64,000 bases of DNA from an uncultured Gammaproteobacteria bacterium (GTDB lineage Bacteria; Patescibacteriota; Microgenomatia; Levybacterales; GWA1-39-11). Location of the stretch: contig CAYVFE010000001.1 of NCBI GenBank assembly GCA_964450885.1, positions 160,489 to 224,488 of the forward strand. Reading direction: 5' to 3'. Shown here one piece after another: positions 35,698 to 55,056 of the stretch (positions are counted from its first letter, which is position 1; every line of letters starts with the position of its first letter). A model generated the notes under the pieces. The model was given only the letters and a program-made list of their open reading frames with translations, was not told the DNA's origin and did no database searches. A program made the position numbers and the translations under genes.

Positions 35698-35703
35698 GCA
35701 TTT

Positions 35704-37182
35704 CTAGAATGAAATAAGTTCTCCCTCAGAGATGTTTCTTGTCAAGATTACATATTGGTACCGTGATAGGTCATTGCTGCTGATTTCTGCAAGATTACCC
35801 CGGATGCTCCCTACCTCTATAGAAATAGCCTGCGCCTTATCCCCACTTACTACATATATGGTAGAAGAGTCGGGTAGGGTATGTATTGCATCAATCGGAA
35901 CATAGATTGCTCCATCAGTCTTCGAGTTCACGTCAAGTGGTACTATTATATTTACATATGAATTATTGGAGATACTGTTTTGATAGGAATCTGGTATGGA
36001 ATATAAAACAGATGATAAGTTTCCATCAGTTGCATCTATGGATATGTGTTCAGGAAAGATTTCTATCTCATTTTCGTTGATAATGACCTTAGTAGCTCTG
36101 TCTTTACTTATCATTTGTGACAGATCGAATGGGATTTTCGCGATGAGTTGGAGATTTTGATCTCCATGAATAACCATAAGTGGAGTTCCTGGATTTACCA
36201 GTTCGCCTTCCTTTACGAAAATTCTTTCCACGGTCGCTTTAATAGGCGAAGCTGGAAACATTAAGGATTCTTGAATCTGTGCTATCTGGAGCTGAAGTCC
36301 TGCGGTTTTAAGAGATAGCTCCAGTGCCTTTTCTTGGACATCCAGCTGTTTTAGCGCGATTTCCTTTGTGAGATTAGATAGGTCAGCCTGAGGAGTATCG
36401 CCTCTGGATTGGTAGCGTGTATTGTCCAGTCCGCTTTGTAGCTGATTCAATCCAGACTGTATCTGACTTTTTAATTGTTTGGTTGAAAGTATCGCATCAT
36501 CATTTACGCCTCCTACGTTTCCAGATTCTAGCTCATCCAGGTTGGAGTTGATGCTATCCAGAACGTCTTGATTTAGTTCAATCAGATCCTCAGTTCGCTC
36601 AATAGAATCGTCTGCTATTTCACGCAGTTCATCTGCATTCTCGTCCTGTTTGTTTGCTATTTCTTTTTGTTTTGAAATAATTTCTTTTTGGGTGTCATAC
36701 GTATCCTTGGTGTTTTGGTACTGTGCTCCTGCTAGTTGGCGTTGAACAGATGGAGCACTTGATCCTTGATAGTTGGAAGACAGCGAGATAAGTTTTCTTC
36801 CAGGACTAACTATATCTCCAGCTTTTACATCAATACTTTTGACTATTCCTGAAGTTTGAGCAGTAATGGTAATAATTCCAGATTTCTCTATCTGTCCCTG
36901 GATGGATATTTCGCTTGGGTTTCCTGTGTCATACACCTGCACATTCTTAACTATTTTTTGTGTACTTTTGTCCTCTTGGGATGGGGTCCTAAGAATATTT
37001 CCTAATACGATAAGTACTAGCAAAACAAGAACGAAGAGTGTGATAGAGAGAAGTGGCCTTTTTTCAAATCGTCTTATAAAAACAGGATAAGTATTTTTTA
37101 GTTTTTTGATTATATTTTTGCGTTTTTTCCTAAAGAAGATGTTAATATTTTTGAGCCTGCTCATAGAAAGCAAGTATATCAT
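35704..37182 (-). CDS. Periplasmic adaptor (membrane-fusion/HlyD-like) subunit for the RND pump
   Basis: N-terminal TM anchor, long coiled-coil, and barrel/lipoyl-like segments GIVKSIDVKAGDIV and GTPLMVIH. Immediately upstream of and co-oriented with the RND gene. Confidence 0.6.
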   Translation of the reverse strand: MIYLLSMSRLKNINIFFRKKRKNIIKKLKNTYPVFIRRFEKRPLLSITLFVLVLLVLIVLGNILRTPSQEDKSTQKIVKNVQVYDTGNPSEISIQGQIEKSGIITITAQTSGIVKSIDVKAGDIVSPGRKLISLSSNYQGSSAPSVQRQLAGAQYQNTKDTYDTQKEIISKQKEIANKQDENADELREIADDSIERTEDLIELNQDVLDSINSNLDELESGNVGGVNDDAILSTKQLKSQIQSGLNQLQSGLDNTRYQSRGDTPQADLSNLTKEIALKQLDVQEKALELSLKTAGLQLQIAQIQESLMFPASPIKATVERIFVKEGELVNPGTPLMVIHGDQNLQLIAKIPFDLSQMISKDRATKVIINENEIEIFPEHISIDATDGNLSSVLYSIPDSYQNSISNNSYVNIIVPLDVNSKTDGAIYVPIDAIHTLPDSSTIYVVSGDKAQAISIEVGSIRGNLAEISSNDLSRYQYVILTRNISEGELISF

Positions 37183-41374: not shown

Positions 41375-42586
41375 TTATTCATACCTCAAAGCATCGATAG
41401 GAGATAGCTTTGCTGCACGCCTTGCAGGGTATATCCCAAACACAATTCCGACAAGCGTTGATACCCCCACCGCAATTATAATGGCAGGGATACTTACGAC
41501 AAATGGAATATTTGCAACAAGGGAAATTAGAAAAGCTCCAGATATCCCTAGTGCGATCCCTATAAGTCCTCCTATAAGACTCATAACAACTGATTCGACC
41601 AAAAATTGCGTTAATATATCCTTTTCCTTTGCGCCGATCGCTTTAAGTAGTCCTATTTCTCGCGTCCTTTCGGTTACAGATACTAGCATTATATTCATGA
41701 CACCGACTCCTCCTACGACTAGGGAAATTCCTGATATGCCAGCAATCATGGCAGTTAGTAGGCCCGTTATGGTCTGTACAGTAGACAATATATCTTGAGA
41801 GCTAGTTATCTGAAAATCATTTTCATCGTCCTCATCTAAATTGTGTCTATCACGCAGCAAGAGCTCAACGTCCTCTAAGGTCTGATTTATTGAATTTTGA
41901 TCGTGTACGCCTATATCAATCTCCTGAAGTTTTTCCTCGCCAACGATTTCCCGCGTGACAACATCTATGGGAACTATTGCCGAGTTGTTGATGAATCCGC
42001 CCGCAAGCGCGCTGGACGACTCCATGACACCAGTCACCCTAAATGTTCTGTTATTGATTCTTACTATTTCTCCTAACGCAGATGTGTTTTCTCCAAATAA
42101 ATCCTCCACGACATCTGTTCCCAGTATGACAATTCTCTCTGAGGCTGTACCTTGTTCCTGCGTCATGAACTCTCCTTCGATGAGGTCAGGACGCAGAATT
42201 TCAAATATTTCATGAGTGGAGCCATATGTCAAAACTTCTTCGTCTTCTCCGTTTGCTGATATGTTCACAGATGCCATGGAAATTGGCGCAACGTATCGGA
42301 TGTTTGTTAGGGAAGCGTCATTCCGGATCGCTTCTACGTCATCAAATGTTATGGTATTTGAACCTGCGAAAGTACTGAACTGATCACTCCCAGGAGTAAT
42401 TTGAAAATAATCTGTTCCAAATGATGATAATTCGTCTGTTACAAAAGCGACTGCTCCTTGACCTATAGAATAGATTAGGATGACCGAGGTTATTCCTATT
42501 ATGATCCCCAACATCGTTAAGGACGTTCGCAGGATATTGTTTCTCAGTGCTTGGATTGCCGATTGGACTATTTCCTTGTATTCCAT
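41375..42586 (-). CDS. ABC transporter permease, MacB/FtsX-like
   Basis: One N-terminal TM, a large periplasmic domain, and three C-terminal TM helices in the FtsX arrangement. Adjacent to the ABC ATPase. Confidence 0.8.
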   Translation of the reverse strand: MEYKEIVQSAIQALRNNILRTSLTMLGIIIGITSVILIYSIGQGAVAFVTDELSSFGTDYFQITPGSDQFSTFAGSNTITFDDVEAIRNDASLTNIRYVAPISMASVNISANGEDEEVLTYGSTHEIFEILRPDLIEGEFMTQEQGTASERIVILGTDVVEDLFGENTSALGEIVRINNRTFRVTGVMESSSALAGGFINNSAIVPIDVVTREIVGEEKLQEIDIGVHDQNSINQTLEDVELLLRDRHNLDEDDENDFQITSSQDILSTVQTITGLLTAMIAGISGISLVVGGVGVMNIMLVSVTERTREIGLLKAIGAKEKDILTQFLVESVVMSLIGGLIGIALGISGAFLISLVANIPFVVSIPAIIIAVGVSTLVGIVFGIYPARRAAKLSPIDALRYE

Positions 42587-42588
42587 AA

Positions 42589-43284
42589 TTATTTCTTTTT
42601 GTCAGAAACGACCTTTCCGTCGACTAGCCTAATAATTCTTTTTGCATGCTGAGCTATATCATCTTCGTGGGTGATTAGGATTATTGTCCTTCCTTTGTTA
42701 TTTAGCTCTTTTATAAATGACATAATTTCATGCGACGTCTTTGTGTCTAGATTTCCGGTCGGCTCATCCGCAAGGATGATCGATGGGTCCATAACGAGTG
42801 CACGTGCTATCGCGACGCGTTGGATCTGGCCACCTGATATGTGATTTGATAGATTGTGCGCTTTATCTGCGATTCCTACGAGCGAGAGTGCATCCATAGC
42901 CCGCCTCGTCCGTTCTTCCGGGTTAATCTTTCCATAGAGCATAGGGCGTTCTACATTCTTTAAGACGGTTGTCCTGGGGAGCAGATTAAATGACTGAAAA
43001 ATAAATCCAATTTCCTTATTCCTGATATCAGCGAGTTGATCCTCCGTATATGTGCTTATGTTCTTTCCATTAAGTAGATACTTTCCGGTTGTCGGAGTAT
43101 CGAGGGCTCCTATTATATGCATTGTTGTTGATTTACCACTTCCAGATGGTCCCATGATTGCGACAAAATCTCCCTCGCTTACCTCAAGTGTTACTCCATT
43201 TAGTGCTTGATAGAATTGATCGTCACCGAGGGGATAGCGTTTTGTGATGTTCTCTAGCTTGATGATCGGAGTGTTATTTGGCAT
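42589..43284 (-). CDS. ABC transporter ATP-binding protein (MacB/LolD-type)
   Basis: Walker [10 protein letters not shown], signature [15 protein letters not shown], Walker [12 protein letters not shown]. Confidence 0.92.
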
Positions 43285-43294
43285 TGCATCTTAT

Positions 43295-44545
43295 TTAAAA
43301 TAATCCTGATCTTTGAATTTGTTCGTTCGAAAGCGACGTAACAATTTCCTGTCCTTCATCTAGACCCTTGAGTATTTGTGTCCTGTCCTCTCCCCGTATT
43401 CCTATTTCTACAGGAACATATTCGACAGCTTTAGTCGATGGATTAATGACTCTTACTGCGCGTCCTCCCTGATAAGGCTTAACAGCCGAATTCGGGACAG
43501 AAAGCACGTCCGTTATTTGATTTGTGACGATCTCAACATCTGCCGTCATTCCCGATCTCAGGTCAGTATCAGGATTAGTTATTTCTATATAGACGTTATA
43601 GCGGATAACGCCCATGTCATCAGTTCCGATAGTGTCAACTCTTCGTACGATACCTTTGAATTCTTTTCCATCTATAGAGCTTACATCGATAACCGCTTCC
43701 TGACCGTCTTTTACTTTAGATATATCTGTTTCACTTAGCGAGACTTTTACCTCTGTGGTACCTGGCTTTGCGATATTGAGAATTGGCGATGAGGCATTTG
43801 TTACAGTCTGGGCTTTTATCGGAGACCCACCAGTCACTGCAAGATTTGCTATAGTCCCGTTAGTTGTTGCTTTCACAACCGCATCTTGGGTTGCCTGATA
43901 CAAAAGCCATGTTGAGCTAACTGCCACTCCGGCTTGGCCTACGACCGTCTGTTGATCTTTATATTTGGCTTCAGCTGCTTGCCATTGGTCTTGCGATATC
44001 TGAAATTCTGCAGCTTGGCGATTTTCCTCCCGTGGTCTATTTTCACCATCCTCATACTCTCCATTAGTCGCCAGGTCTCGGAATGAATCCCATGCTCCGT
44101 ACATATCTGCGCGCAGTACATCTAGGTTGGATTTTGCAGCATTTAGAGTTGCCACAGCTGTTAGGTAATTTGCATAAGCTGCCTTTTGTTCTTGTTCTGT
44201 TGCGTTACTTTCTATATTTAGAAGATTTTGGTTTTCGATTACGATATCTCCATTTGCTACATAAATTTCTTTTACAATACCGTTAGTTGGAGAATATATC
44301 TCGACGTTTCCATTCGATGACACTCTTCCCGTTTCTGTAACAGTTTCCTTTATATCTGTACGCTCAGCCTTTGCCAGCGTATATCCTGGAGGGGCAGTGA
44401 GCGCGCCGATTTGGCCAACAACGATAGACAGTAATATGATTATTACAACTATTACGATGATCTTTTTTTTCCACGATATAGACTTGAACCACGAGTGGAA
44501 CTTTCTGGGAAAATAGAGCACTTTAGCTATCATAATTAATATCAC
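43295..44545 (-). CDS. HlyD/MacA-like periplasmic adaptor
   Basis: N-terminal TM, coiled-coil, beta-barrel segments. Operonic with the MacB-like ABC transporter. Confidence 0.6.
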   Translation of the reverse strand: MILIMIAKVLYFPRKFHSWFKSISWKKKIIVIVVIIILLSIVVGQIGALTAPPGYTLAKAERTDIKETVTETGRVSSNGNVEIYSPTNGIVKEIYVANGDIVIENQNLLNIESNATEQEQKAAYANYLTAVATLNAAKSNLDVLRADMYGAWDSFRDLATNGEYEDGENRPREENRQAAEFQISQDQWQAAEAKYKDQQTVVGQAGVAVSSTWLLYQATQDAVVKATTNGTIANLAVTGGSPIKAQTVTNASSPILNIAKPGTTEVKVSLSETDISKVKDGQEAVIDVSSIDGKEFKGIVRRVDTIGTDDMGVIRYNVYIEITNPDTDLRSGMTADVEIVTNQITDVLSVPNSAVKPYQGGRAVRVINPSTKAVEYVPVEIGIRGEDRTQILKGLDEGQEIVTSLSNEQIQRSGLF

Positions 44546-44707
44546 CTATGATAACATGTTTGGCTAATCTTAAGAAAGTAGATTTCAAAAGGCTTCAATC
44601 ATGAAAATTTTAAGTTCAAAATAGGCCAAAAGTAAAAAAAGGTGAGCAAAATTACTATAACATATTGACTAGTTTTATACAGTCTGATACTATCCTGAGA
44701 CTGAACT

Positions 44708-44730
44708 GCCCCAGCAAAGGGGCTTTTTTT
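44708..44730 (+). terminator. Terminator-like hairpin (gcccc-agcaaa-ggggc + T7) 12 nt upstream of the DUF4352 gene start
   Basis: 5 bp GC stem, 6 nt loop, seven T. Preceded by a TTGACT-N17-TACTAT promoter-like element at 44674-44702. Confidence 0.35.
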
Positions 44731-44742
44731 ATAGCAAAAAAT

Positions 44743-45507
44743 ATGGACAAAAATAATTCTACAATTTCGATAAATATCCCAAATCCCGTTGTCGGGATCG
44801 ATAAATTGAAAAACTACATTTTCGCTTTTGCATTGGAGATGTATAACGGTCCGATAAGACAAAGGACTTCTCCACTAAAAAACTTTCTGAGCAACGTAAA
44901 AAATCCTTTTAAGAATTTTAAATTCCCAAAGTTTAACAAGAAATTTTTGATCAAAATCGCACTTCCTATACTTGTAGTAGTAATTTTCCTGTTGGGTGCA
45001 GCAAGCATCATAAGAAGTTTTAATACCACGAGCGCAAATCCTGATTATGCGACGCAAGTTGGGGCAGCACTTCCAAACCCAGTGTCTGAGCAGAAATTGG
45101 ATAAGAGTTTTAATTTTCCTCTGACAGATGAGGAGGGAGAACAGGTTGGATCTTTTGACTATACAGTCGAGAATGCAGAGCTTAGAAAGCAGATTATTGT
45201 TCAAGGAAAAAGAGCGACTTCTATAGAAGGAAGAGTATTTCTGATCCTAAATCTTAAGATCGTGAATAATCTGGATCAGGCAATCCAACTTAATACGAGA
45301 GATTATGTCAGGGTGGTCGTAAACAATAACGCTGACGAGAGGCTTGCTCCAGACATCCACAACGATCCAGTAGAAGTGCAGGCGATCTCAACAAAATACA
45401 CACGACTTGGTCTTGCGATAAATGATACAGATACTAAAAATCCAATCATTCTTCAGGTAGGAGAAATTGATGGAGAGAAACAAACGATAGAGATAAGCTT
45501 TAAATAA
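44743..45507 (+). CDS. Membrane-anchored DUF4352-like protein
   Basis: Start taken at ATG 44743 (MDKNNST...) because the upstream ORF extension contains the terminator hairpin. One TM (IALPILVVVIFLLGAA), then a beta-rich domain ...RVFLILNLKIVNN... Confidence 0.45.
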   Translation: MDKNNSTISINIPNPVVGIDKLKNYIFAFALEMYNGPIRQRTSPLKNFLSNVKNPFKNFKFPKFNKKFLIKIALPILVVVIFLLGAASIIRSFNTTSANPDYATQVGAALPNPVSEQKLDKSFNFPLTDEEGEQVGSFDYTVENAELRKQIIVQGKRATSIEGRVFLILNLKIVNNLDQAIQLNTRDYVRVVVNNNADERLAPDIHNDPVEVQAISTKYTRLGLAINDTDTKNPIILQVGEIDGEKQTIEISFK

Positions 45508-45529: not shown

Positions 45530-45763
45530 ATGAGTAACCTAAAACAGGACGAGCTAATCTCAGAAATAAAAAACGCCCTCAGAAGCGTTAAATATGGAAG
45601 CGTTGAAATCATTGTTCAGGATAGTACCGTTACTCAGATTACCGTTAGAAACATCAAAAAAACCAGCGTTGGAATACATGAGGAAGATGCACCAACGCAA
45701 GATCATACACTTAGGAATAATATTCATACGAGGTCTAAAATAAGAATAAACTTGCACTCTTGA
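45530..45763 (+). CDS. Small DUF2292/YezD-like protein
   Basis: ISEIKNALRSVKYGSVEIIVQDSTVTQITVRNIKK resembles the conserved YGSV-I-I-QDG-V-QI core of YezD-family proteins. Confidence 0.4.
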   Translation: MSNLKQDELISEIKNALRSVKYGSVEIIVQDSTVTQITVRNIKKTSVGIHEEDAPTQDHTLRNNIHTRSKIRINLHS

Positions 45764-45788
45764 CACAGTAAGTTACATAGAGTATAAG
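45760..45788 (+). promoter_or_regulatory. Sigma70-like promoter (TTGACA-N17-TATAAG) for the repeat-protein cluster
   Basis: ttgaca at 45760-45765, 17 nt spacer, tataag at 45783-45788. Confidence 0.35.
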
Positions 45789-45817
45789 TATTAACTAGTA
45801 ACGAAAGGCTGACCGCA

Positions 45818-45873
45818 AACGGAGGCTTCTACACACAAAAACTTGTGTGCGGAAGTCTCCGTTTTTCGTTTTT
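45818..45873 (+). terminator. Leader hairpin with U-tract (intrinsic-terminator-like) between promoter and first repeat-protein gene
   Basis: acggaggcttctacacacaaaaacttgtgtgcggaagtctccgt followed by ttttcgttttt. Outer stem of about 11 bp with one wobble pair, inner cacaca/tgtgtg stem. Confidence 0.45.
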
Positions 45874-45961
45874 AAGGGCTACCAAAAACGACTTAGGCGG
45901 GGCAAGTTACGAAGTGCTCTCTTAACGGAGAAATCTTAATAAAAAGGAGGTGAAACTTAAA

Positions 45962-47248
45962 ATGACAAATTTAAAACAACAAACTTTTTCAGTACTAGCA
46001 GCAGGAGCTATGCTTCTTAATGTAGCTACTCCAGCCCTAGCTGGTACTTATGAAATATCTGGTAACGGTTCAGGATCTGACAACGATATCGTTGTTGAAT
46101 CTACAAATACAACAACCGTTAATCAGAACAATACAGCAAACGTCACCAACAATATAAAAACAAAAGCAGACACAGGCGACAACAAAGCTAATTACAATAC
46201 TGGTGGAAATGTAGAAATTTCTACTGGGAACGCAGGTGTAACTGCAAGTGTTTCAAACAACCTTAACAGCAATGTTGCAGAGGTTGATTGTTGCGCAGCA
46301 AATGATACCGATGTCACAATTTCTGGCAACGGTTCAAAGTCTGATAACAAAGTTGGACTAGTTAACTCTAATACAACTAAAGTTAATCAGAAAAATGTTG
46401 CAAATGTAACAAATGATGTAGATGCTAAAGCAGACACAGGCGACAACAAAGCAGGCGCAAATACCGGCGGAGATGTCGTTATAACAACTGGTAAAGCAGT
46501 AGTAAATGTAGACGTTGACACTGTTGCAAACAGCAATGTTGCAAGAGTTGGAAGCGGAAACAGCGCTACTCCTACACCATCAGCAAGCTTTATGATTATC
46601 GGAAACGGTTCCGGATCTGATAATGAAATAGCAGCTGCACTTACAAACGCAACAACACTAGGTCAGAACAATACAGCAAACATCACTAATGATGTAGATG
46701 TAGACGCTGATTCTGGGGACAACAAAGCTAACTATAATACAGGCGGCGATGTTGTAATAACTGCTGGTTATCCAGTAGGAGCAGTTGCAACTGTTGATGT
46801 TGACAATCTAGTTAACTTCAACGCTGCAGATGTTGATTGTGGATGTGAATTCGATGTTACTGCAAAAATCTCTGGAAACGGAGCAGAAGCAGATGACAAA
46901 AATCACAAAAATTGGTGGAGCAAATGGTTTGACAAAGACCAGAATTATATCGGTCTTACCCTAGACAACACTCAAACTGTTGGACAGGCAAACTTAGCAA
47001 ATCTAACCAATGATGTTGACGTAGACGATGCAGAAAGTGGAGATAACGAAGCTAGTTACAATACTGGAGAGGCTGATACCGACCCAAGCATAACAACTGG
47101 TGCTGCTATCTCAGATACTTCTGTATCTAACGAAGGCAACTCAAATATCTTAGGTGATCTTTCTCTAGAAATGCCTGAAATGCCAAGCAATGTTGAAGTT
47201 TCTTTCAGCTTTGCAGCAATGATGGCTTTCTTTGGAATGTCATTCTAA
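45962..47248 (+). CDS. Secreted Asn/Thr/Gly-rich tandem-repeat protein (paralog 1)
   Basis: Start at ATG 45962, 9 nt after RBS aaaggaggtg. Signal peptide MTNLKQQTFSVLAAGAMLLNVATPALA. About 75 aa repeats (ISGNGSGSDN...VNQNNTANVTN...ADTGDNKANYNTGGDVVITTG.A.V) with paired Cys between repeats. Confidence 0.7.
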   Translation: MTNLKQQTFSVLAAGAMLLNVATPALAGTYEISGNGSGSDNDIVVESTNTTTVNQNNTANVTNNIKTKADTGDNKANYNTGGNVEISTGNAGVTASVSNNLNSNVAEVDCCAANDTDVTISGNGSKSDNKVGLVNSNTTKVNQKNVANVTNDVDAKADTGDNKAGANTGGDVVITTGKAVVNVDVDTVANSNVARVGSGNSATPTPSASFMIIGNGSGSDNEIAAALTNATTLGQNNTANITNDVDVDADSGDNKANYNTGGDVVITAGYPVGAVATVDVDNLVNFNAADVDCGCEFDVTAKISGNGAEADDKNHKNWWSKWFDKDQNYIGLTLDNTQTVGQANLANLTNDVDVDDAESGDNEASYNTGEADTDPSITTGAAISDTSVSNEGNSNILGDLSLEMPEMPSNVEVSFSFAAMMAFFGMSF

Positions 47249-47258
47249 TTGGGCGTGA

Positions 47259-47295
47259 GTAGAGGTTCTTGCTAGCACTTCGGCAAGACCTCTAC
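47259..47295 (+). promoter_or_regulatory. Intergenic long stem-loop (13 bp stem with one bulge, 10 nt loop) with no U-tract
   Basis: gtagaggttcttgc tagcacttcg gcaagacctctac, between repeat-protein genes 1 and 2. Confidence 0.35.
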
Positions 47296-47343
47296 AAAAC
47301 CCAACACAAAATTGAAAATTAAAATAAATAACTAAAAATAAAA

Positions 47344-49671
47344 ATGATAAAAATACAACAAAAAATAATAACAATATTACTGATCCTCGTTATGGTAGGA
47401 CGGGCGATAGTGCCATCTGTTGTAGTAGCGCAGGAGTCGACTGAGACAGAAACCCAAACAACGACTACTCAGGAAGAGCCTAAAGAGCCAGAGTCTCCTA
47501 AAGAACCCGAAGCACCTAAGACACCTGAGAGCCCAGAGTCTCCAAAAGAACCTGAAGCACCTAAGACACCTGAGAGTCCTAAGTCGCCTGAAAGTCCTAC
47601 ATCTCCAAAGACACCAGAGTCTCCGAAATCTCCAGCATCTCCAAAGGCACCAGAGTCTCCTAAAGAGCCCTCTAAGCCATCAACTGATGCATGGAAACCA
47701 AAACCACGGGGAAATTATGGCGGAAATAATATCAATTCAAATGAAACGCAGGACGCAGTCCCCAGCACAGGAGCAAATTCAAATGGTAATGTAGGGAGTA
47801 CATCTGTGGATACCGGAGATGCAAATAACGCTGCAACCGTTACGACAAATGGTAATTCAAATCTCGCATCAGGAAATGGTCCAACTAACGGAAGTGCAGG
47901 AGTCGTTAACAGCGGCAACGGAGTACACTCGTCAAATAATGGTTCTGCATCTACAACGAATAACAACAATACAAATCAAAACAATAGTGCAAATGTAGGA
48001 AATAATGTAGAGCAATCATCTATAACCGGTGATAATTCGACGTCTTTTAATGTGGGAGATTCATCGATAACTACAGGGGATGCAAACGTAACTGGAACAG
48101 TCATAACTTCTGTTAATACCAATGTCGACGGAGTGGCTGTCGCGGAATTCAATATAGCAGATGACCATGTGGGAGATATAATTCTTGATTTTGGATCAAA
48201 TTGCGTGCAGGGATGCACTCCTGGATCTCTCTCAGCAACAAATAGTGGCAATGGTGTAGGCTCAAATAATAGCTCAGATGCTAGCACAACGAACAATAAC
48301 ACCACAAACCAGACAAACGATGCTATCGTAGGAAATAATCTGGATCTATATGCAGACTCGGGAAACAATACAGCAAGCTTCAATACTGGTGGCGATTCGT
48401 CGATAACTACTGGGGATGCAAACGTTAGCGCAAATGTACTGACTTTTGCCAACAACAACTTTGCCGGAAATATAATATATGGAGTAGTCAATATATTTGG
48501 AGATCTAGTAGGTGACATAATCCTTACCGAGGAAGCGATGAATGCAGCGTGTGGAGGAAATTGTTATGGACAAAATACAAATGCAGCAAATGCAGGAAAT
48601 GGAGCATATTCAGACAATAACGCAAGTAGTACAAACACGAATAACAACAATACATTTCAATCAAACGATGCGACCATAAACAACAACCTAGTTCTTGACG
48701 CGACTACGGGGGACAATGATGCGAATTTCAATACAGGTGGATCGTCAAATGTGACTACTGGAAATTCATCGATCGATGCAAATGTGCTAAATATCGCAAA
48801 CTCAAATATAAACGGTGGTAACTGGTGGCTGGTTGTGGTAAATGAAGCCGGTAATTGGGTAGGAAAGCTATTTGGAGCAGATGAAAATGGAAATATGGCA
48901 GGATCAACTGGAACGGAATTTGTGATAGATCCTGTAACTGGCGCAGTTACAGCAAAAAATAACGCAAACGGAGTGGGCTCCGATAATACGGCAAACACGA
49001 CAAATACGAACAATAACACGACAAACCAGACGAACACTGCAGTAATTGATAACAACATAAATCTAGGTGCAAACACTGGAGGAAATAAGACCAGCTACAA
49101 TACTGGAGGAGATTCTAACATCGTGACGGGAGACGCAGAAGTGGTCGCAAATATCGTAAACTTTGTGAACAATAATGTAAGTGGCGGTGGTAAGCTTCTT
49201 GTAACAGTGGTTAATGTATTCGGCAGCTGGATCGGTGACTTTGTGACACCAGGGCACGAAAAGGCTCCTTCTACAGCTCAGAATGTAGGCGGATCAAATA
49301 ATAACTCTCATAATAGTTCATCAAATTCATCCAATAGCACAAAGTCAGAAAATTCGGACACAAATGTATCGATAATAAATGCTGGGAATGAGAATGTGGC
49401 ATATGTAGGAGGAGAGATGGGAGACGAAGAGGATTTTGAAGGATTTGGTTTTGGTACAGTCCAAGGAGAAAATACATCCGGAGGAAATGAGGCTACTGTT
49501 GTAAAAACCGTTGGGCAAGACGATTCTGCGGCAGTAGCTGAAAAGACACTTCACATTAATCTAGCATGGCTACTTCTCGCCTTCCCTATGTTAGTTATGA
49601 TCTCGTTACTGAAGAAATCATTTGTTCCGGTAAAGACACTTGCACTAAAAGGTATACATCTATTTCTATGA
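47344..49671 (+). CDS. Secreted repeat protein (paralog 2): signal peptide, (E/S)PKxPE linker, four ~110 aa Asn/Thr/Gly-rich repeats, C-terminal hydrophobic segment
   Basis: Linker PKEPESPKEPEAPKTPESPESPKEPEAPKTPESPKSPESP. Repeats NSGNGV.S.N...TTNNNTTNQTN...TGDN..SFNTGGDS.ITTGDA.V.ANV. C-terminal LAWLLLAFPMLVMISLLKK. Confidence 0.7.
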   Translation: MIKIQQKIITILLILVMVGRAIVPSVVVAQESTETETQTTTTQEEPKEPESPKEPEAPKTPESPESPKEPEAPKTPESPKSPESPTSPKTPESPKSPASPKAPESPKEPSKPSTDAWKPKPRGNYGGNNINSNETQDAVPSTGANSNGNVGSTSVDTGDANNAATVTTNGNSNLASGNGPTNGSAGVVNSGNGVHSSNNGSASTTNNNNTNQNNSANVGNNVEQSSITGDNSTSFNVGDSSITTGDANVTGTVITSVNTNVDGVAVAEFNIADDHVGDIILDFGSNCVQGCTPGSLSATNSGNGVGSNNSSDASTTNNNTTNQTNDAIVGNNLDLYADSGNNTASFNTGGDSSITTGDANVSANVLTFANNNFAGNIIYGVVNIFGDLVGDIILTEEAMNAACGGNCYGQNTNAANAGNGAYSDNNASSTNTNNNNTFQSNDATINNNLVLDATTGDNDANFNTGGSSNVTTGNSSIDANVLNIANSNINGGNWWLVVVNEAGNWVGKLFGADENGNMAGSTGTEFVIDPVTGAVTAKNNANGVGSDNTANTTNTNNNTTNQTNTAVIDNNINLGANTGGNKTSYNTGGDSNIVTGDAEVVANIVNFVNNNVSGGGKLLVTVVNVFGSWIGDFVTPGHEKAPSTAQNVGGSNNNSHNSSSNSSNSTKSENSDTNVSIINAGNENVAYVGGEMGDEEDFEGFGFGTVQGENTSGGNEATVVKTVGQDDSAAVAEKTLHINLAWLLLAFPMLVMISLLKKSFVPVKTLALKGIHLFL
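47491..47580 (+). repeat. 45 bp tandem duplication encoding ESPKEPEAPKTPESP, inside repeat-protein gene 2
   Basis: The 45 bp at 47491-47535 are nearly identical to 47536-47580. Degenerate further copies follow up to about 47670. Confidence 0.6.
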
Positions 49672-50786
49672 TACGAAAGGCAGCATTGTTAATAATCTGC
49701 CTGCCCATCCTGACCCAAACACTTAGCCAACAAGTTCTGGCAGAGCAAATAACTATCGTGGTGGAAGGAAATGGCTCAGGTTCTTCAAATGAAGCAAATG
49801 TAAAAGTAGAAAAAGAAACGACGGTCAGTCAGAATAACGAAGCAAATATTAACAATAATGTAGATGCGAATGCCAATACCGGTGATAATTCTGTAAACGG
49901 CAACAGTGGAGACGCAAACATCCAGACAGGAGATGCAAATGTTACGACAAACATAAATAACGAAAATATCAACACAAATTCTGCAGACATCAATAATTGC
50001 TGCAATGGAGATACTAGCATCAAAGTTTCAGGAAATGGATCAAATTCGACAAATGTTGTGAACAGTAACCAGTATTCAGGAAATACGGTGAATCAGACCA
50101 ACAAAGCGAATATCGGAAACAACGTCAACATAAAGGCAAATACCGGGAACAATACTGCAAATTACAACGGTGGAGATGTATTCATCAAGACGGGGAATAT
50201 AAAATCGACGACAAATATCTCAAACAAGAACATAAATAATAGTTATGCGCTATCTAATACAGGAGTTGGCGGAGCGTCTGTTGTAATAATCGGAAATGGC
50301 TCTAATTCTGTAAACATCGTAAATCAAAACGATATCAATAGCACAGTAACCAATGTGGTAAATATCGCAAATATAAATAACTATGTGAGAGAGGATTTGA
50401 ATACAGGAATCAATAAAGCAAAAGGAAATCTGGGGGATGTGGCCATAATTACGGGAGGTATTGAGAGCGTTATAAATATCAAGAATGAGGATATAAATAC
50501 CAGTACTGCGATAACTACATGTCTTTGTGATACAAAAACTCCTGAGGAGCCTGAGAATCCCGAAGAGCCAGAGAACCCCGGAAATGGAAATCCTCCTGGA
50601 TCAACAGTCCAATCTGCAAATGGAAGTAGCAATGGGGGAAATGGTGGTCCAGCTGGAGCAGTGCTTCCGATAACCGGAGGACTACCTTTCACATATATAT
50701 TTACTCTTGTGCTATTTCTAATGTTTCTGATGGGTCTGTATCTGCGTTTTTATTCTGGAAAATCTCCGCCGGCAGTTGCCAAGTAA
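49668..50786 (+). CDS. Repeat protein (paralog 3) with C-terminal LPITG sortase sorting signal
   Basis: Start at ATG 49668, overlapping the upstream stop (ATGA). Signal peptide MIRKAALLIICLPILTQTLSQQVLA. C-terminus ...AVLPITGGLPFTYIFTLVLFLMFLMGLYLRFYSGK is LPxTG plus a hydrophobic segment plus a basic tail. Confidence 0.7.
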   Translation: MIRKAALLIICLPILTQTLSQQVLAEQITIVVEGNGSGSSNEANVKVEKETTVSQNNEANINNNVDANANTGDNSVNGNSGDANIQTGDANVTTNINNENINTNSADINNCCNGDTSIKVSGNGSNSTNVVNSNQYSGNTVNQTNKANIGNNVNIKANTGNNTANYNGGDVFIKTGNIKSTTNISNKNINNSYALSNTGVGGASVVIIGNGSNSVNIVNQNDINSTVTNVVNIANINNYVREDLNTGINKAKGNLGDVAIITGGIESVINIKNEDINTSTAITTCLCDTKTPEEPENPEEPENPGNGNPPGSTVQSANGSSNGGNGGPAGAVLPITGGLPFTYIFTLVLFLMFLMGLYLRFYSGKSPPAVAK

Positions 50787-50796
50787 CTTAATCCTT

Positions 50797-50818
50797 AAAC
50801 CCCGAAAGGGGTTTTTTG
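50797..50818 (+). terminator. Intrinsic terminator after the LPITG protein gene
   Basis: aaacccc gaaa ggggttt followed by tttt. Confidence 0.5.
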
Positions 50819-50869
50819 ATGCCTTAAATTAGATTTGCTTTATATAGCTTCATAAATTAACATACCCAT

Positions 50870-51427
50870 ATGAATACAAGAGTTCAAAAAATGCTGGGAA
50901 ATATACTTATTGTACTTTCGCTATCAGGATTATTATTCATATATTATCCATTACTAAAGGAGCTTTTCTTCCCCCCGATTTATACAGTAGAGGAAAAGGA
51001 GAGTCTCGATTTTTCCGTAGAAATACCTTCGATAGGCGTTTTTTCAAAAGTTATCGGTGATGTTGATCCATTTGACCAGTCAGAATACATAGAAAGCCTG
51101 AAAGATGGTGTAGCTCATGCTCTTGGGTCTAAAAAGCCAGGAGAAAACGGTACAGTGTATCTATTTGCGCATAGCTCTGACGTGCCGTGGAGAATTACCC
51201 GTTATAACACAGCATTTTTCAAACTCGGAAATACGAATTCAGGAGACAGGGTTGTCGTCAGAAATGATGGAAAAAAATTCGTCTATGAAATCTTTGATAA
51301 AAAGGAAGTCTGGCCGGACGAGATAGAATATTTGACGCAGGATCAGGGGGACATATTGATCCTCCAGACGTGTACACCTGTAGGAACCGCTCTTCGCCGC
51401 CTTCTGGTATTTGCAAAACCTATATAA
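50870..51427 (+). CDS. Sortase (class unassigned)
   Basis: N-terminal TM anchor. Conserved His in LFAHSS, catalytic Cys in LILQTCTP (TLxTC motif), downstream Arg in ALRRLLVF. Confidence 0.75.
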   Translation: MNTRVQKMLGNILIVLSLSGLLFIYYPLLKELFFPPIYTVEEKESLDFSVEIPSIGVFSKVIGDVDPFDQSEYIESLKDGVAHALGSKKPGENGTVYLFAHSSDVPWRITRYNTAFFKLGNTNSGDRVVVRNDGKKFVYEIFDKKEVWPDEIEYLTQDQGDILILQTCTPVGTALRRLLVFAKPI

Positions 51428-51463
51428 AAAACAAACCCTTTCTTTGTACTTCAGAAAGGGTTT
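51425..51463. terminator. Terminator between convergent sortase and repeat-protein paralog 4 (strong for the minus strand)
   Basis: Perfect 11 bp stem aaaccctttct / agaaagggttt with 9 nt loop. An A-run on the plus-strand 5' side gives a U-tract for the minus-strand transcript. Confidence 0.5.
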
Positions 51464-51486
51464 GAAATAACTATTAAGCGTCCTTA

Positions 51487-52152
51487 TTAGTTATTTGTAT
51501 TAGATGATCCTTCTACAGTTACACCTACTGTTGAGTTGGTTCCACCGCTTGTGATTGAAGATCCACCGCCTACGTTAAAGCTTGAGCTATTGCCGCCGGT
51601 ATTGGATCCGACAACTATATTAGTATTTGCAATAGTAGTATTGCTTTGGTAGGTTGACTTGCTGTTTTTGTTTACTAAAACTACGGAATTTTTGCTGAAC
51701 GCTCCATTTCCAGAAATAGTCGTAGTATTTGATCCCTCTTCGCATCCGCAGTCGTCAGTATTTGTGTTGGTATTACCTGTCACAGTTACAGTCGCATTGG
51801 TAGTTACTCCTCCTGTAGTGATAGTATTATTACCTCCTACATTGAATGAAGATTTATTCTTTCCAGTGTTGGAAAGTATTCCTACATTCGTATTTGCGAC
51901 AGTAGTGTTGTTCTGGACTACACGGGTCTTTTTCTTGTTAAAGATCCATGCATGATTCCATGAAAAAGCACTATTGTTTTTGATCTCAACGTTATTGCTT
52001 GCCGCAAATGAGCTTGCAGGAGCAAAAACAGCTGCTGCCATACTTCCGATTACAGCTGCAGTAGTTAATTTTTGTTTTATATTCATTTGATTCACCTCCT
52101 TCCTAGAAAAATCCTGCCAACCATATGTGTATTTGTACAAAAAAACAGCCAA
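51487..52152 (-). CDS. Secreted Asn/Thr/Gly-rich repeat protein (paralog 4), no anchor
   Basis: RBS aggaggtgaatcaaATG on the minus strand. Signal peptide with AxA site. Repeats NTTVANTNVGILSNTGKNKSSFNVGGNNTITTGGVT. Cys pair DDCGCEEG between repeats, as in paralog 1. Confidence 0.65.
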   Translation of the reverse strand: MAVFLYKYTYGWQDFSRKEVNQMNIKQKLTTAAVIGSMAAAVFAPASSFAASNNVEIKNNSAFSWNHAWIFNKKKTRVVQNNTTVANTNVGILSNTGKNKSSFNVGGNNTITTGGVTTNATVTVTGNTNTNTDDCGCEEGSNTTTISGNGAFSKNSVVLVNKNSKSTYQSNTTIANTNIVVGSNTGGNSSSFNVGGGSSITSGGTNSTVGVTVEGSSNTNN

Positions 52153-52388
52153 AAAAAAGGCTGTTTATAATTTTCTGTAGCAAATGACTATCATAGGCAG
52201 GTTCATAAAAGACTTAGATAAAATCTTTTTAGATTAAAAGGTCTTTAAATAAATGGCAAGAAATTAAAGACTGGGGCAAGATTAAATGCCATTATATGCT
52301 AGCTTCTGCCACGTCCGTCAAGAGAGACTAACTGTATGTTTTTATAATAAAAAGGCTCAGTTTTGTTTTCACGGATATCTTGTTATTC

Positions 52389-52473: not shown

Positions 52474-52501
52474 GTGGGAAGAAATTTGCCCACCTTTTTT
52501 T
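52474..52501 (+). terminator. Leader intrinsic terminator 8 nt upstream of the nusA start codon (attenuator candidate)
   Basis: ggtggg agaaatttg cccacc followed by ttttttt. Confidence 0.5.
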
Positions 52502-53577: not shown

Positions 53578-55056
53578 ATGGGAAAGAAAAAAGAGCAACA
53601 AACAACTCGCACGTCGCATCCTCCAGTAGTATCTGTTTTAGGTCACGTTGATCACGGAAAAACTACGCTACTTGATACCATAAGAAAGACTAATAGGGCA
53701 GACAGGGAGGCTGGTGGAATTACCCAGTCGATAGGTGCTTCGTCGATCAAACTAGATCACGAGGGAAAAAAACGTGAAATAACTTTCATAGATACACCAG
53801 GCCACGAGGCTTTCTCGAATATGCGTTCATATGGGGTAAACGGAGCAGATATAGTCCTTCTAATAATTGCTAGCGATGACGGAATAAAACCTCAGACGAA
53901 AGAATCGATTGATTTGATTTTAAAATCTGGGTTGGATTTTATTGTCGTTTTTACAAAATCAGATGCTCCTGGAGCAAACCTAGAAAAGGTGAAGCAGGAA
54001 GTTTTAAAATCCGGAATCCTTTTGGAGGGACTTGGTGGAAATACGCCATTTATCTCAGTTTCCGCAAAAACAAATACGAATATCAAAGAGCTTTTGGATC
54101 TGATACTTATAGTTTATGACATAAAAGAGAACAAGAAAGACGCAGGCGGGGAATTTCAAGGGGTTGTTATCGAATCTCAGCTTGATAAAAGACGCGGACC
54201 TGTATCGTCAGTAATCGTAAAAAAAGGAACGATAACGAGAGCAAGCAAGCTATATGTAAAAGATAAAGAGGTTGGAAGTGTTAGGGCACTATTTAACACA
54301 GAGTCAAAACCTGCAGCATCAGCTTATCCAGGTGACGCAGTTGAAATACTAGGAATATCTACTGTTCTTCCTGCGGGTAGTGTTTTGTATTCTCAGCCTC
54401 AAATAGAATCGGAAAAAGAACAAGGCCCGACAGCTCTTTCCGATGTTTCTCATCACGATTTGTTAAAAAGAATCCAGATGCAGTCCCAAGATAAGTTGCC
54501 ACTTATCCTAAAGACCAGGACGAGCGGAGAGTACGAGGCGATAGTCGAGTCGATGCCGGATGATGTAGAGATAATTTTTGAGGGTAGGGGAGATATAGTC
54601 GCATCGGACATCATGATGGCCAAGGACTTTTCAGCGATTGTTGTCGGCTTTAATGTCGGAATCGAAAAACAGGCGGAGAGTATCGCTATCTCGCAGGGGA
54701 TCTTTTATAGGAATTATACAATTATCTATAAGATGCTTGAGGAGATAGAGGATGCTGCTCAGATGCTGCTTGAACAGGGAATGAAAAAAATTGCCGGTAA
54801 GGCAAAGATACTGGCTCAATTTGAAGGAACGACAGGAACGATTATCGGAATTAGGGTTGATGAGGGAAGGGTTCAGATAGGAGACCTAATCCAGAGAGAA
54901 GATACGGATGATACTATAGGTAAGATTTCTACGATAAAGCAGGGAAAAGAAGATGTAAAACAAGTCGGCAAAGGTAAAGAATGCGGAATCATGTCAGACA
55001 CGCCGATTGACTTTACTATAGGTGATATGTTAATATTCCTCTCAAATAAAAAATAA
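53578..55056 (+). CDS. infB: Translation initiation factor IF-2, minimal form beginning at the G domain
   Basis: PVVSVLGHVDHGKTTLLD (G1), DTPGHEAF (G3), TKSD (G4). 492 aa with no N-terminal extension. Confidence 0.9.
   Translation: MGKKKEQQTTRTSHPPVVSVLGHVDHGKTTLLDTIRKTNRADREAGGITQSIGASSIKLDHEGKKREITFIDTPGHEAFSNMRSYGVNGADIVLLIIASDDGIKPQTKESIDLILKSGLDFIVVFTKSDAPGANLEKVKQEVLKSGILLEGLGGNTPFISVSAKTNTNIKELLDLILIVYDIKENKKDAGGEFQGVVIESQLDKRRGPVSSVIVKKGTITRASKLYVKDKEVGSVRALFNTESKPAASAYPGDAVEILGISTVLPAGSVLYSQPQIESEKEQGPTALSDVSHHDLLKRIQMQSQDKLPLILKTRTSGEYEAIVESMPDDVEIIFEGRGDIVASDIMMAKDFSAIVVGFNVGIEKQAESIAISQGIFYRNYTIIYKMLEEIEDAAQMLLEQGMKKIAGKAKILAQFEGTTGTIIGIRVDEGRVQIGDLIQREDTDDTIGKISTIKQGKEDVKQVGKGKECGIMSDTPIDFTIGDMLIFLSNKK

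What the first reader, a model, noticed from the sequence alone, without database searches (positions are those of the whole stretch)
45760..52152. Sortase locus with four paralogous Asn/Thr/Gly-rich repeat proteins, only one of which carries LPXTG
Between the MacAB transporter and nusA lie three co-directional genes and one convergent gene. They encode secreted proteins built from 75-110 aa repeats with the recurring core ...SGNGSGSDN...NT(A/T)N(V/Q)TN...(A/T)TGDN.A.(Y/F)NTGGD..I.TG.A.V... and conserved Cys pairs. The set also contains a sortase (His in LFAHSS, Cys in LILQTCTP). Paralog 3 ends with LPITG plus a hydrophobic stretch plus a basic tail, which is a textbook sorting signal, and its start overlaps paralog 2 (ATGA). 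Paralog 2 carries a PESPK proline linker of the cell-wall-spanning kind. Paralogs 1 and 4 lack anchors. I could not assign the repeat to any family I know. Its composition suggests a beta-solenoid-like surface fibre or coat. As inference, a sortase-attached base subunit (paralog 3) may carry non-covalently associated or co-polymerised paralogs as a surface layer or adhesive appendage.
Basis: partly seen in the sequence, partly recalled or inferred. Interest (0 to 1): 0.6.

Follow-up and report, generated by a model that had tools for sequence, protein, structure and literature searches.

The report
Conserved sortase-linked beta-solenoid surface cassette
This is a seven-gene cell-surface cassette conserved across the uncultured Microgenomates bacteria: four related secreted repeat proteins predicted to be beta-solenoid rods, each attached differently, plus their own sortase; none of them is annotated or studied, so it is a concrete lead to what covers these cells.

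Summary
Four paralogs (p1 45962-47248, p2 47344-49671, p3 49668-50786, all +; p4 51487-52086, -) carry 4, 4, 3 and 2 copies of an ~85-aa Asn/Gly/Thr-rich unit. A sortase with an intact His-Cys-Arg triad lies between p3 and p4. Only p3 has an LPXTG-type signal.

p2 ends in a conserved transmembrane anchor. p1 ends in a conserved hydrophobic tail. The two upstream genes, a membrane protein with a weakly DUF4352-like domain and a DUF2292 protein, belong to the same unit.

The gene order X-DUF2292-p1-p2-p3-sortase-(p4) recurs in about 80 species-level genomes of at least seven Microgenomates lineages. The sortase occurs in two forms that track the two forms of the p3 sorting motif.

Best reading: a multi-anchor beta-solenoid surface assembly, similar in logic to chaplins. 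Co-assembly of the paralogs is inferred, not shown. This is a new variant of a known kind; interest about 0.6.

The parts
44665..45507 (+). Gene X: single-pass membrane protein with a conserved extracellular C-terminal domain that is weakly DUF4352-like. The start codon is uncertain (ORF listed from TTG 44665; an ATG lies at 44743).
   Evidence: ORF. An ortholog sits immediately upstream of DUF2292-p1 in 74 of 80 related loci. 13 of 36 orthologs give weak DUF4352 hits, best E 8e-4; the window copy itself gives none.
45530..45763 (+). Small DUF2292 (YezD-like) protein, 77 aa, with no signal peptide.
   Evidence: Pfam DUF2292 at E 2.4e-10, 40.2 bits against a cutoff of 22. Present between X and p1 in 75 of 80 loci.
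45962..47248 (+). p1: signal peptide, four ~88-aa solenoid units, CC and CGC motifs after units 1 and 3, and a conserved C-terminal hydrophobic tail (47168-47245). No LPXTG.
47344..49671 (+). p2: signal peptide, N-terminal Pro-rich PESPK linker (47479-47682), four units each followed by a conserved hydrophobic 'VVNxFGxWxG'-type insert, Cx3C pairs, and a C-terminal INLAW + TM + KK membrane anchor (49555-49668).
   Evidence: 165 positions are at least 90% conserved in 74 orthologs, including N739, L740, A741, W742 and P748.
49668..50786 (+). p3: signal peptide, three units, CC and CLC motifs, Pro/Gly linker (50532-50603), and an LPITG + TM + basic sorting signal (50664-50783). The ATGA start overlaps the p2 stop.
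   Evidence: 45 of 67 positional orthologs carry LPxTG and 17 carry a GL[SA]x[TAS][SA][GSE] variant.
50870..51427 (+). Sortase, 185 aa, with an N-terminal TM. Catalytic residues: H101 (51170-51172), C168 (51371-51373), R177 (51398-51400).
   Evidence: Pfam Sortase E 7e-23. NCBIfam sortase_fam 48.7 bits against a cutoff of 39.35, with classes C to F far below their cutoffs. Triad invariant in 61 of 61.
51487..52086 (-). p4: signal peptide and two units separated by a CGC motif. No anchor. Convergent with the operon.
   Evidence: Orthologs are about 197-205 aa. A positional ortholog follows the sortase in 42 loci. The AF2 model has low confidence, pLDDT 57.
46049..47155 (+). The four p1 repeat units: 46049-46306, 46313-46570, 46589-46849, 46865-47155.
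47905..49212 (+). The four p2 repeat units: 47905-48159, 48238-48492, 48586-48840, 48958-49212.
49758..50534 (+). The three p3 repeat units: 49758-50012, 50019-50267, 50280-50534.
51490..51990 (-). The two p4 repeat units: 51736-51990 and 51490-51723.

Best explanation
The locus is a conserved seven-gene envelope cassette of Microgenomates (CPR/Patescibacteria). The window most likely comes from a Levybacteria-like genome.

**The proteins.** Four Sec-secreted paralogs are built from one ~85-aa Asn/Gly/Thr/Ala-rich unit predicted to fold into beta-helix/solenoid rungs. Each paralog is held at the cell surface in a different way:
- p3 carries a tripartite C-terminal sorting signal. The adjacent dedicated sortase cleaves it and joins p3 covalently to the wall (inferred from family knowledge of sortases).
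- p2 is tethered by a conserved C-terminal transmembrane helix and projects a Pro-rich N-terminal extension.
- p1, which has a conserved hydrophobic C-terminal tail, and the minimal two-unit p4 are released.

**Proposed mechanism.** p1 and p4 are retained by stacking onto the anchored solenoids, so that the four proteins build one fixed-composition surface structure: a rod, fibre or coat. The conserved CC/CxC cysteine pairs at unit boundaries probably stabilise it by disulfides. X, with its membrane-anchored, weakly DUF4352-like domain, and the small DUF2292 protein are conserved accessory factors of unknown role.

**Shown versus inferred.**
- Shown: repeat architecture, anchor types, intact sortase, synteny, enzyme-signal covariation, fold class (moderate confidence).
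- Inferred: cleavage and anchoring of p3, co-assembly of the paralogs, disulfides, biological role.
For: - **Repeats.** 13 units at E 4e-9 to 2e-42, confined to these four ORFs.
- **Signal peptides and starts.**
- **Synteny.** X-DUF2292-p1-p2-p3-sortase-(p4) recurs in about 80 species-representative loci. These include Levy-, Roizman-, Gottesman-, Ames-, Woese-, Chisholm- and Daviesbacteria, with different flanking genes.
- **Lengths are tightly conserved.** IQR is 414-439 for p1, 720-758 for p2, 368-391 for p3 and 198-205 for p4.
- **Sorting signal.** Conserved in p3 orthologs: 45 LPxTG and 17 of the GLSxT type.
- **Sortase.** The triad is invariant in 61 of 61. Two sortase forms co-vary 44/44 versus 14/14 with the two motif types, at positions flanking the catalytic His and Cys.
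- **Other anchors.** The p2 C-terminal NLAW-TM-basic anchor and the p1 tail are conserved.
- **Conserved residues look structural.** They are almost all N, G, A, T, Q, S and C, which fits structure rather than catalysis.
- **Literature.** Sortase fam000526 is near-ubiquitous in Microgenomates, and MdbA-like/VKOR disulfide machinery is enriched in CPR (PMC6744442).
Against: - There is no direct evidence that the paralogs touch each other.
- The p1 model is only moderately confident, and the p4 model is poor (pLDDT 57).
- Foldseek finds nothing significant in the PDB or BFVD.
- I had no model coordinates, so continuity of the solenoid and the positions of the cysteines are unverified.
- Enzyme-motif covariation is confounded with phylogeny, because the two forms are clade-specific.
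- Prevalence within Microgenomates is not quantified: the scan used strict peptide patterns and is capped at 80 loci.
- A positional p4 was identified in only 42 of the 61 loci in which a cassette sortase was identified.
Confidence: 0.55

Rival explanations
1. The four proteins are independent surface proteins or adhesins. They are paralogs that diversified and each acts alone, for example by binding host-cell polymers. One happens to be sortase-anchored and one membrane-anchored. There is no joint structure.
For: - The unit also occurs in other architectures and contexts. Examples are proteins of 5 to 10 units and a 1183-aa protein in a 'Parcubacteria group' contig with no sortase among the called genes of the fetched locus.
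Against: - Gene order, copy number of units and protein lengths are held almost constant across several candidate phyla. That is unusual for adhesins, which normally vary.
- p1 and p4 have no retention device of their own.
- The translational coupling of p2 and p3 (ATGA overlap) suggests matched production.
Confidence: 0.2
2. This is a covalent, pilus-like assembly. The sortase joins the Thr of the p3 LPXTG to a lysine of another paralog rather than, or as well as, to peptidoglycan. One candidate is the near-invariant K306 of p1, in the 'AKI(A/S)GNG' motif.
For: - Among NCBIfam classes the sortase scores best against class C, the pilus-polymerising class (50.1 bits).
- p1 has only one conserved lysine (at least 90% of orthologs), at the start of unit 4.
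- The sortase is dedicated to and adjacent to its substrate, as in pilus loci.
Against: - Only one protein has a sorting signal, so no open-ended covalent polymer is possible.
- The class C score is far below its cutoff of 160.
- The predicted fold is a beta-solenoid rather than the Ig-like pilin fold, and no canonical pilin motif was seen in the conserved positions of p1.
Confidence: 0.1
3. The solenoids are functional surfaces rather than scaffolds. They could be Ca2+-binding RTX-like beta-rolls, ice- or mineral-binding faces, or polysaccharide-active beta-helix enzymes.
For: - There is a weak NosD hit for p4 at E 0.003, below its cutoff.
- The TG(D/G)N / NTGG turns recur every 8-9 residues.
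Against: - No HemolysinCabind or lyase family hit appears.
- There is no GGxGxD consensus.
- Conserved positions lack acidic, His or Arg clusters typical of beta-helix enzymes.
- The cassette's strict conservation with a sortase fits a structural role better.
Confidence: 0.07

Closest known systems
Chaplins of Streptomyces (ChpA-H) with class E sortases
   Same: Both are sets of paralogs built from one self-associating domain. The longer paralogs carry a C-terminal sortase signal and are wall-anchored, while shorter ones are simply secreted. In chaplins the short forms are proposed to co-assemble onto the anchored ones and form a surface layer (PMC5618241). The logic here is the same: p3 anchored, p1 and p4 free.
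   Different: - No sequence relationship: Pfam Chaplin/DUF320 is not hit.
- The unit is ~85 aa and predicted to be a solenoid, not a ~40-aa amyloid domain.
- There is an additional membrane-anchored paralog (p2).
- The sortase is encoded inside the cassette and is not class E by score.
- The host is a CPR lineage, not an actinomycete.
Curli CsgA/CsgB and Fap functional-amyloid beta-solenoids
   Different: - The repeat period is 88-92 aa with only weak sub-periods, against 19-23-aa rungs in curli.
- Export would be by Sec plus sortase; no CsgG-type outer-membrane channel is expected, since CPR are reported to lack a Gram-negative envelope (PMC6744442).
- Amyloid-like polymerisation is untested.
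Sortase-assembled Gram-positive pili (SpaA type)
   Same: A dedicated sortase is encoded next to its secreted substrates in one operon, and several related structural proteins are present.
   Different: - Only one of the four proteins has a sorting signal.
- The predicted fold is a beta-solenoid rather than the Ig-like pilin fold.
- The sortase is far below the class C cutoff.
LPXTG-anchored beta-helix adhesins (e.g. S. pneumoniae PfbA, serine-rich-repeat protein binding regions)
   Different: Those are single proteins anchored by a housekeeping sortase. Here there is a four-paralog set with three retention modes, plus conserved accessory genes.

Membership tests
Sortase (PF04203 / TIGR01076) | Sortase domain above the curated cutoffs | tested here: met
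   Pfam 81.1 bits against 26.6. TIGR01076 48.7 bits against 39.35.
Sortase (PF04203 / TIGR01076) | Catalytic His, Cys (TLxTC-like) and Arg | tested here: met
   H101 (FAHSS), C168 (LQTCTP) and R177 are invariant in 61 of 61 cassette sortases.
Sortase classes A-F | Score above a class-specific NCBIfam cutoff | tested here: not met
   Class C 50.1/160, D 42/165, E 34/160, F 21/166. The class is unassigned.
LPXTG cell-wall sorting signal | LPXTG-type motif, then a hydrophobic segment, then a basic tail at the C-terminus | tested here: met
   p3 ends LPITG-GLPFTYIFTLVLFLMFLMGLYL-RFYSGKSPPAVAK. The signal is conserved in 45 of 67 orthologs, with a variant motif in 17. It is absent from p1, p2 and p4.
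LPXTG cell-wall sorting signal | Cleavage between T and G and linkage to peptidoglycan | not testable with these tools
   Needs a biochemical assay or mass spectrometry.
Curli (Curlin_rpt PF07012, CsgA/CsgB) | Curlin repeat sequence signature | tested here: not met
   No Pfam hit at E up to 1. hhalign of the unit profile against CsgA gives probability 0.2%.
Curli (Curlin_rpt PF07012, CsgA/CsgB) | Beta-solenoid fold of stacked strand-turn-strand rungs | tested here: inconclusive
Curli (Curlin_rpt PF07012, CsgA/CsgB) | CsgG/E/F secretion-assembly genes | not tested
   The window was not searched systematically for them. None is expected, since CPR are reported to lack a Gram-negative envelope (PMC6744442).
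Chaplins (PF03777) | Chaplin domain | tested here: not met
   No Pfam hit.
Sortase-dependent pilins | A sorting signal on every subunit | tested here: not met
   Only p3 has one.
RTX beta-roll (HemolysinCabind PF00353) | GGxGxD nonapeptide repeats | tested here: not met
S-layer proteins | Known wall-binding modules (SLH, CWB2) or a known S-layer family | tested here: not met
   No Pfam or NCBIfam hits of that kind.
S-layer proteins | Formation of a 2-D paracrystalline lattice | not testable with these tools
   Needs microscopy.
DUF2292 (YezD-like) | Pfam model above cutoff | tested here: met
   45530-45763 scores 40.2 bits against 22.
DUF4352 | Pfam model above cutoff for gene X | tested here: inconclusive
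   The window copy gives no hit. 13 of 36 orthologs give weak hits, best E 8e-4.

The most novel reading that the evidence does not exclude
The cassette builds the main proteinaceous surface structure of Microgenomates cells: a sortase-nucleated, curli-like or chaplin-like beta-solenoid fibre or coat.

In this reading, wall-linked p3 and membrane-linked p2 template the open-ended stacking of the secreted p1 (major subunit) and p4. Disulfides at the CC/CxC motifs lock the assembly. It would be the first functional-amyloid-like system of the CPR and the first to be anchored by its own sortase. It might correspond to the envelope layer or appendages that published microscopy of CPR cells is said to show; I recall such reports but did not verify them here.
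Probability: 0.25. Interest if true: 0.8.

Novelty: new variant of a known kind. Interest (0 to 1): 0.6.

Why it matters
Microgenomates are a large, uncultured, ultra-small, probably host-dependent branch of bacteria, and their cell surface is essentially unknown at the molecular level. Earlier work noted that a sortase is near-ubiquitous in this group and that its lineage-enriched families are mostly hypothetical proteins (PMC6744442). It did not name the substrates.

This cassette supplies a conserved, dedicated sortase-substrate pair together with three paralogs and two accessory genes. That gives testable candidates for:
- the envelope layer or appendage of these cells;
- host attachment;
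- antibodies or tags to visualise or enrich the organisms.

It also defines an unannotated domain family with thousands of members (3246 representative clusters), and a natural pair of sortase/motif variants that is useful for studying sortase specificity.

Tried and rejected
- **Sequence families for the repeat.** Pfam and NCBIfam on all seven proteins gave only sub-threshold noise for the repeat proteins: DUF4269, DUF4834, NosD, and a Pro-rich match to the GBS IgA-binding protein.
- **PDB sequence searches.** Searches with p1, the unit profile and the X profile found nothing meaningful.
- **Foldseek.** Searches of the p1 model against the PDB and BFVD found no significant match.
- **afdb50.** This library was unavailable.
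- **p4 model.** pLDDT was 57, so I did not use it for fold search.
- **CsgA comparison.** hhalign of the unit against CsgA showed no relationship.
- **Phage origin.** tblastn of p1 against phage genomes gave no match, so a phage origin is rejected.
- **RNA elements.** No tRNA or Rfam element lies in the window.
- **Promoters and terminators.** Promoter-like matches (20) were not above the shuffle expectation (21.8 ± 4.8) and terminator-like matches (9 versus 5.1 ± 2.7) only modestly so; I did not use them.
- **Sub-repeat (rung) length.** Profile autocorrelation showed only weak 8/17-aa signals, so I claim no rung length.
- **Literature.** Searches for this cassette, for Microgenomates with LPXTG or sortase, and for CPR S-layers found no description.
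- **Source organism.** Look-ups returned no organism or protein name, and the look-up of encoding contigs returned only a 2.4-kb Logan contig for p1.
- **Enzymatic reading.** I rejected a beta-helix enzyme because the conserved residues are N/G/A/T/Q/S/C.


Full report
**1. What is in the sequence**

Seven genes lie between a MacAB-type transporter and nusA/infB. The transporter spans 41375-44545 on the minus strand, with the MacB_PCD and FtsX domains confirmed. The nusA gene starts at 52474.

The seven genes are:
- X, 44665-45507 (+).
- A DUF2292 gene, 45530-45763 (+).
- p1, p2, p3 and a sortase (+).
- p4 (-).

Corrected starts are as follows:
- p1: ATG 45962, behind the RBS AAAGGAGGTGA.
- p3: ATG 49668, in an ATGA overlap with the p2 stop.
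- p4: ATG 52086, behind the RBS GGAAGGAGGTGA.

Public gene calls give the same p1 (428 aa) and p4 (199 aa). All four paralogs begin with a plausible Sec signal peptide, judged by reading the sequence.

**2. The repeats are real**

An HMM built from the four p1 units detects 4 units in p1, 4 in p2, 3 in p3 and 2 in p4. Domain E-values run from 4e-9 to 2e-42. A profile of all 13 units (alignment A2) matches only these four ORFs in the 64-kb window.

The unit consensus is ISGNGxxSxN...NQxNxANxxNNV...AxTGDNxAxxNTGGDxxITTGxA...VxNxxNxNxA. Profile autocorrelation of p1 gives a period of 88-92 aa with only weak 8- and 17-aa sub-periods. In p2 each unit is followed by a conserved hydrophobic insert of the VVNxFGxWxG type.

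Every cysteine of the mature proteins lies in a close pair:
- p1: CC and CGC.
- p2: CVQGC and CGGNC.
- p3: CC and CLC.
- p4: CGC.

These pairs sit after particular units and are conserved in orthologs.

**3. Anchors**

- **p3** ends with a Pro/Gly linker, LPITG, a hydrophobic stretch and a basic tail. It is the only ORF in the window with such a signal.
- **p2** has its Pro-rich PESPK linker directly after the signal peptide, not near the C-terminus. It ends in a conserved '(I/V)NLAW' + transmembrane helix + KK/RR. N739, L740, A741, W742 and P748 are at least 90% conserved in 74 orthologs.
- **p1** ends in a conserved short hydrophobic tail, consensus PEMP..FSFNxAALWAFFGMS, with no basic tail.
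- **p4** has no anchor.

**4. The sortase**

The protein matches Pfam Sortase at E 7e-23. It passes the generic NCBIfam sortase model but falls far below every class-specific cutoff; the best is class C at 50 bits against 160. H101, C168 and R177 are invariant in 61 of 61 cassette sortases.

**5. Conservation elsewhere**

p1 has 866 relatives among the 8000 candidates scored in the 90%-identity-clustered protein database. They are full-length, about 410-430 aa and 50-85% identical. Where a name is given it is only 'hypothetical protein', and the organisms named are Levybacteria and Patescibacteria.

A scan of one genome per GTDB species returned 80 loci. They include:
- Levybacteria
- Roizmanbacteria
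- Gottesmanbacteria
- Amesbacteria
- Woesebacteria
- Chisholmbacteria
- Daviesbacteria

One record is labelled Nealsonbacteria. Many TPA records are titled 'uncultured Gammaproteobacteria'; I treat those titles as unreliable.

In almost every locus long enough to judge, the order is X-DUF2292-p1-p2-p3-sortase, often followed by a convergent p4. Of 80 loci, counts are X 74, DUF2292 75, p1 80, p2 80, p3 67, sortase 61 and p4 42. Many loci are cut by contig ends. Flanking genes differ between genomes, so the seven genes form a unit of their own.

| Protein | Length IQR (aa) | Median identity to window (%) |
|---|---|---|
| X | 210-262 | 46 |
| DUF2292 | 63-79 | 58 |
| p1 | 414-439 | 51 |
| p2 | 720-758 | 50 |
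| p3 | 368-391 | 42 |
| sortase | 185-204 | 48 |
| p4 | 198-205 | 39 |

(All values.)

The unit profile finds 3246 representative clusters (50% identity) at E up to 1e-3, and 767 at E up to 1e-30. They include proteins with 5 to 10 units. The few that carry names are CPR hypothetical proteins. One, on a 'Parcubacteria group' contig, has no sortase among the called genes of the fetched locus.

**6. The enzyme and its signal change together**

Among 67 p3 positional orthologs, 45 carry LPxTG followed by a TM and a 'YLRxxSGxSP' tail. Another 17 carry GL[SA]x[TAS][SA][GSE] followed by a TM and a basic tail.

| | Sortases next to LPxTG substrates (44) | Sortases next to the GLS variant (14) |
|---|---|---|
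| After the catalytic His | FAHSSDxPWRITRYN | FAHA(R/K)(D/E), no 9-residue insertion |
| Around the catalytic Cys | LQTC(T/V)P | TL(F/Y)TCSGFxD |

The split is 44/44 against 13-14/14 at several columns flanking the catalytic residues. The two forms are clade-specific, so phylogeny is a confounder. The pattern is nevertheless what a dedicated enzyme-substrate pair would show.

**7. Fold**

- AlphaFold2 on p1 with a 50-sequence alignment gave pLDDT 69.7 and pTM 0.58, with an all-beta model.
  - SufB, TBCC, filamentous haemagglutinin, RTX blocks, the LPXTG adhesin PfbA and many lyases.
- Foldseek against the PDB and BFVD found nothing significant. Its weak top hits were again FapC, CsgA and 'curlin associated' proteins.
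- The p4 model was too poor to use (pLDDT 57).

I could not inspect coordinates. Whether the four units form one continuous solenoid, and where the cysteines sit, is therefore unknown.

At sequence level no family matches: Pfam, NCBIfam and the PDB give nothing.

**8. Accessory genes**

X is a single-pass membrane protein with a well-conserved C-terminal domain. Weak DUF4352 hits appear in 13 of 36 orthologs, best E 8e-4, and the window copy gives none. The small protein is a clear DUF2292 member. I found no functional literature for DUF2292. Their roles are open. Their conservation with the cassette is the only evidence that they belong to it.

**9. Interpretation**

Conserved positions in p1, p2 and p3 are almost entirely Asn, Gly, Ala, Thr, Gln, Ser and Cys. 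This argues for a structural scaffold and against a beta-helix enzyme. Fixed unit numbers and lengths across candidate phyla, translational coupling of p2 and p3, and three complementary retention modes all favour one defined surface assembly over a set of independently evolving adhesins.

The closest analogy in logic is the chaplin system. There, long paralogs are sortase-anchored and short ones are proposed to co-assemble on them (PMC5618241). The closest analogy in predicted fold is curli/Fap. Membership of either family fails at the sequence level. The classical sortase-polymerised pilus is excluded as a family because only one protein has a sorting signal.

A limited covalent link from p3 to a lysine of another paralog, for example the near-invariant K306 of p1, cannot be excluded. 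Extracellular disulfide formation is plausible in CPR, since MdbA-like oxidoreductases and VKOR are enriched there (PMC6744442).

**10. Novelty**

Méheust et al. [quoted passage not shown] I found no paper that describes these substrates, the repeat domain or the cassette. The literature tool does not cover most subscription journals, so this absence is not proof.

I classify the finding as a new variant of a known kind: a sortase-dependent surface assembly of paralogous repeat proteins, built from an unannotated domain family and confined, as far as seen, to CPR bacteria.

**11. Verdict**

- Confidence that this is a surface-located, sortase- and membrane-anchored beta-solenoid protein set is high.
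- Confidence that the four proteins form one assembly is moderate (about 0.55).
- Confidence in an open-ended amyloid-like fibre or coat is low (about 0.25).
- Interest: 0.6.

Noticed in passing
L024-L027, L030, L034, L035, L037, L040-L043, L056, L060 (p3 and sortase genes) compared with the window 50664-51427: A second, clade-specific version of the system. p3 ends in GL[SA]x[TAS][SA][GSE] + TM + basic instead of LPxTG, and p3 is often only ~190-200 aa. The adjacent sortase lacks the 9-residue insertion after the catalytic His and reads TCSGFxD instead of TC(T/V)P. This is a natural specificity pair.
   Followed up: partly
P0271 (1046 aa, Woesebacteria): This protein looks like a p2-p3 fusion. 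The p2 C-terminal 'INFAW' TM segment is followed in the same protein by p3-type units and a GLSATSS end. It is either a real fusion or a read-through gene call.
   Followed up: no
L001:13504-17113: In one Levybacteria genome the cassette is followed by further surface-type genes: HemolysinCabind, LTD and Peptidase_M73 (the camelysin family). The window has nusA there instead.
   Followed up: no
L083:8001-11552 (Parcubacteria group contig): A 1183-aa protein carries 9 matching stretches of the same unit with p2-like hydrophobic inserts. It sits beside housekeeping genes, and no sortase is among the called genes of the 19.5-kb locus. The domain therefore also occurs outside the cassette and possibly outside Microgenomates.
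   Followed up: partly
Genome contigs record titles of L003-L009 and many others: Dozens of TPA MAG records titled 'uncultured Gammaproteobacteria' or 'Pseudomonadales' carry this CPR cassette with full synteny. The titles look like placeholders or errors and should not be used for taxonomy.
   Followed up: no
window 32401-37182 and 41375-44545: An AcrB-type RND pump (1098 aa) with a HlyD-like adaptor, plus a MacA/MacB-like set, sit in what is presumed to be a single-membrane CPR cell. Tripartite-pump components without an outer membrane are worth a look.
   Followed up: no
window 1-64000: The whole 64-kb window has no tRNA gene and no Rfam family at gathering threshold.
   Followed up: yes
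window 52143-52166: A perfect 8-bp stem hairpin is flanked by T-runs on both strands (AAACAGCC-N8-GGCTGTTT), between the p4 start and nusA. It looks like a bidirectional terminator, but it lies upstream of p4 rather than downstream.
   Followed up: no
window 53578-55056: The infB (IF-2) ORF is only 492 aa. This is noted as a feature of the genome, not of the finding.
   Followed up: no
window 47168-47245 (p1 tail) and p2 inserts, e.g. 48490-48560: The conserved p1 C-terminal tail (FSFNxAALWAFFGMS) and the p2 inter-unit inserts (VVNxFGxWxG) are both short aromatic/Gly hydrophobic elements. Possible docking partners, but this is pure speculation.
   Followed up: no
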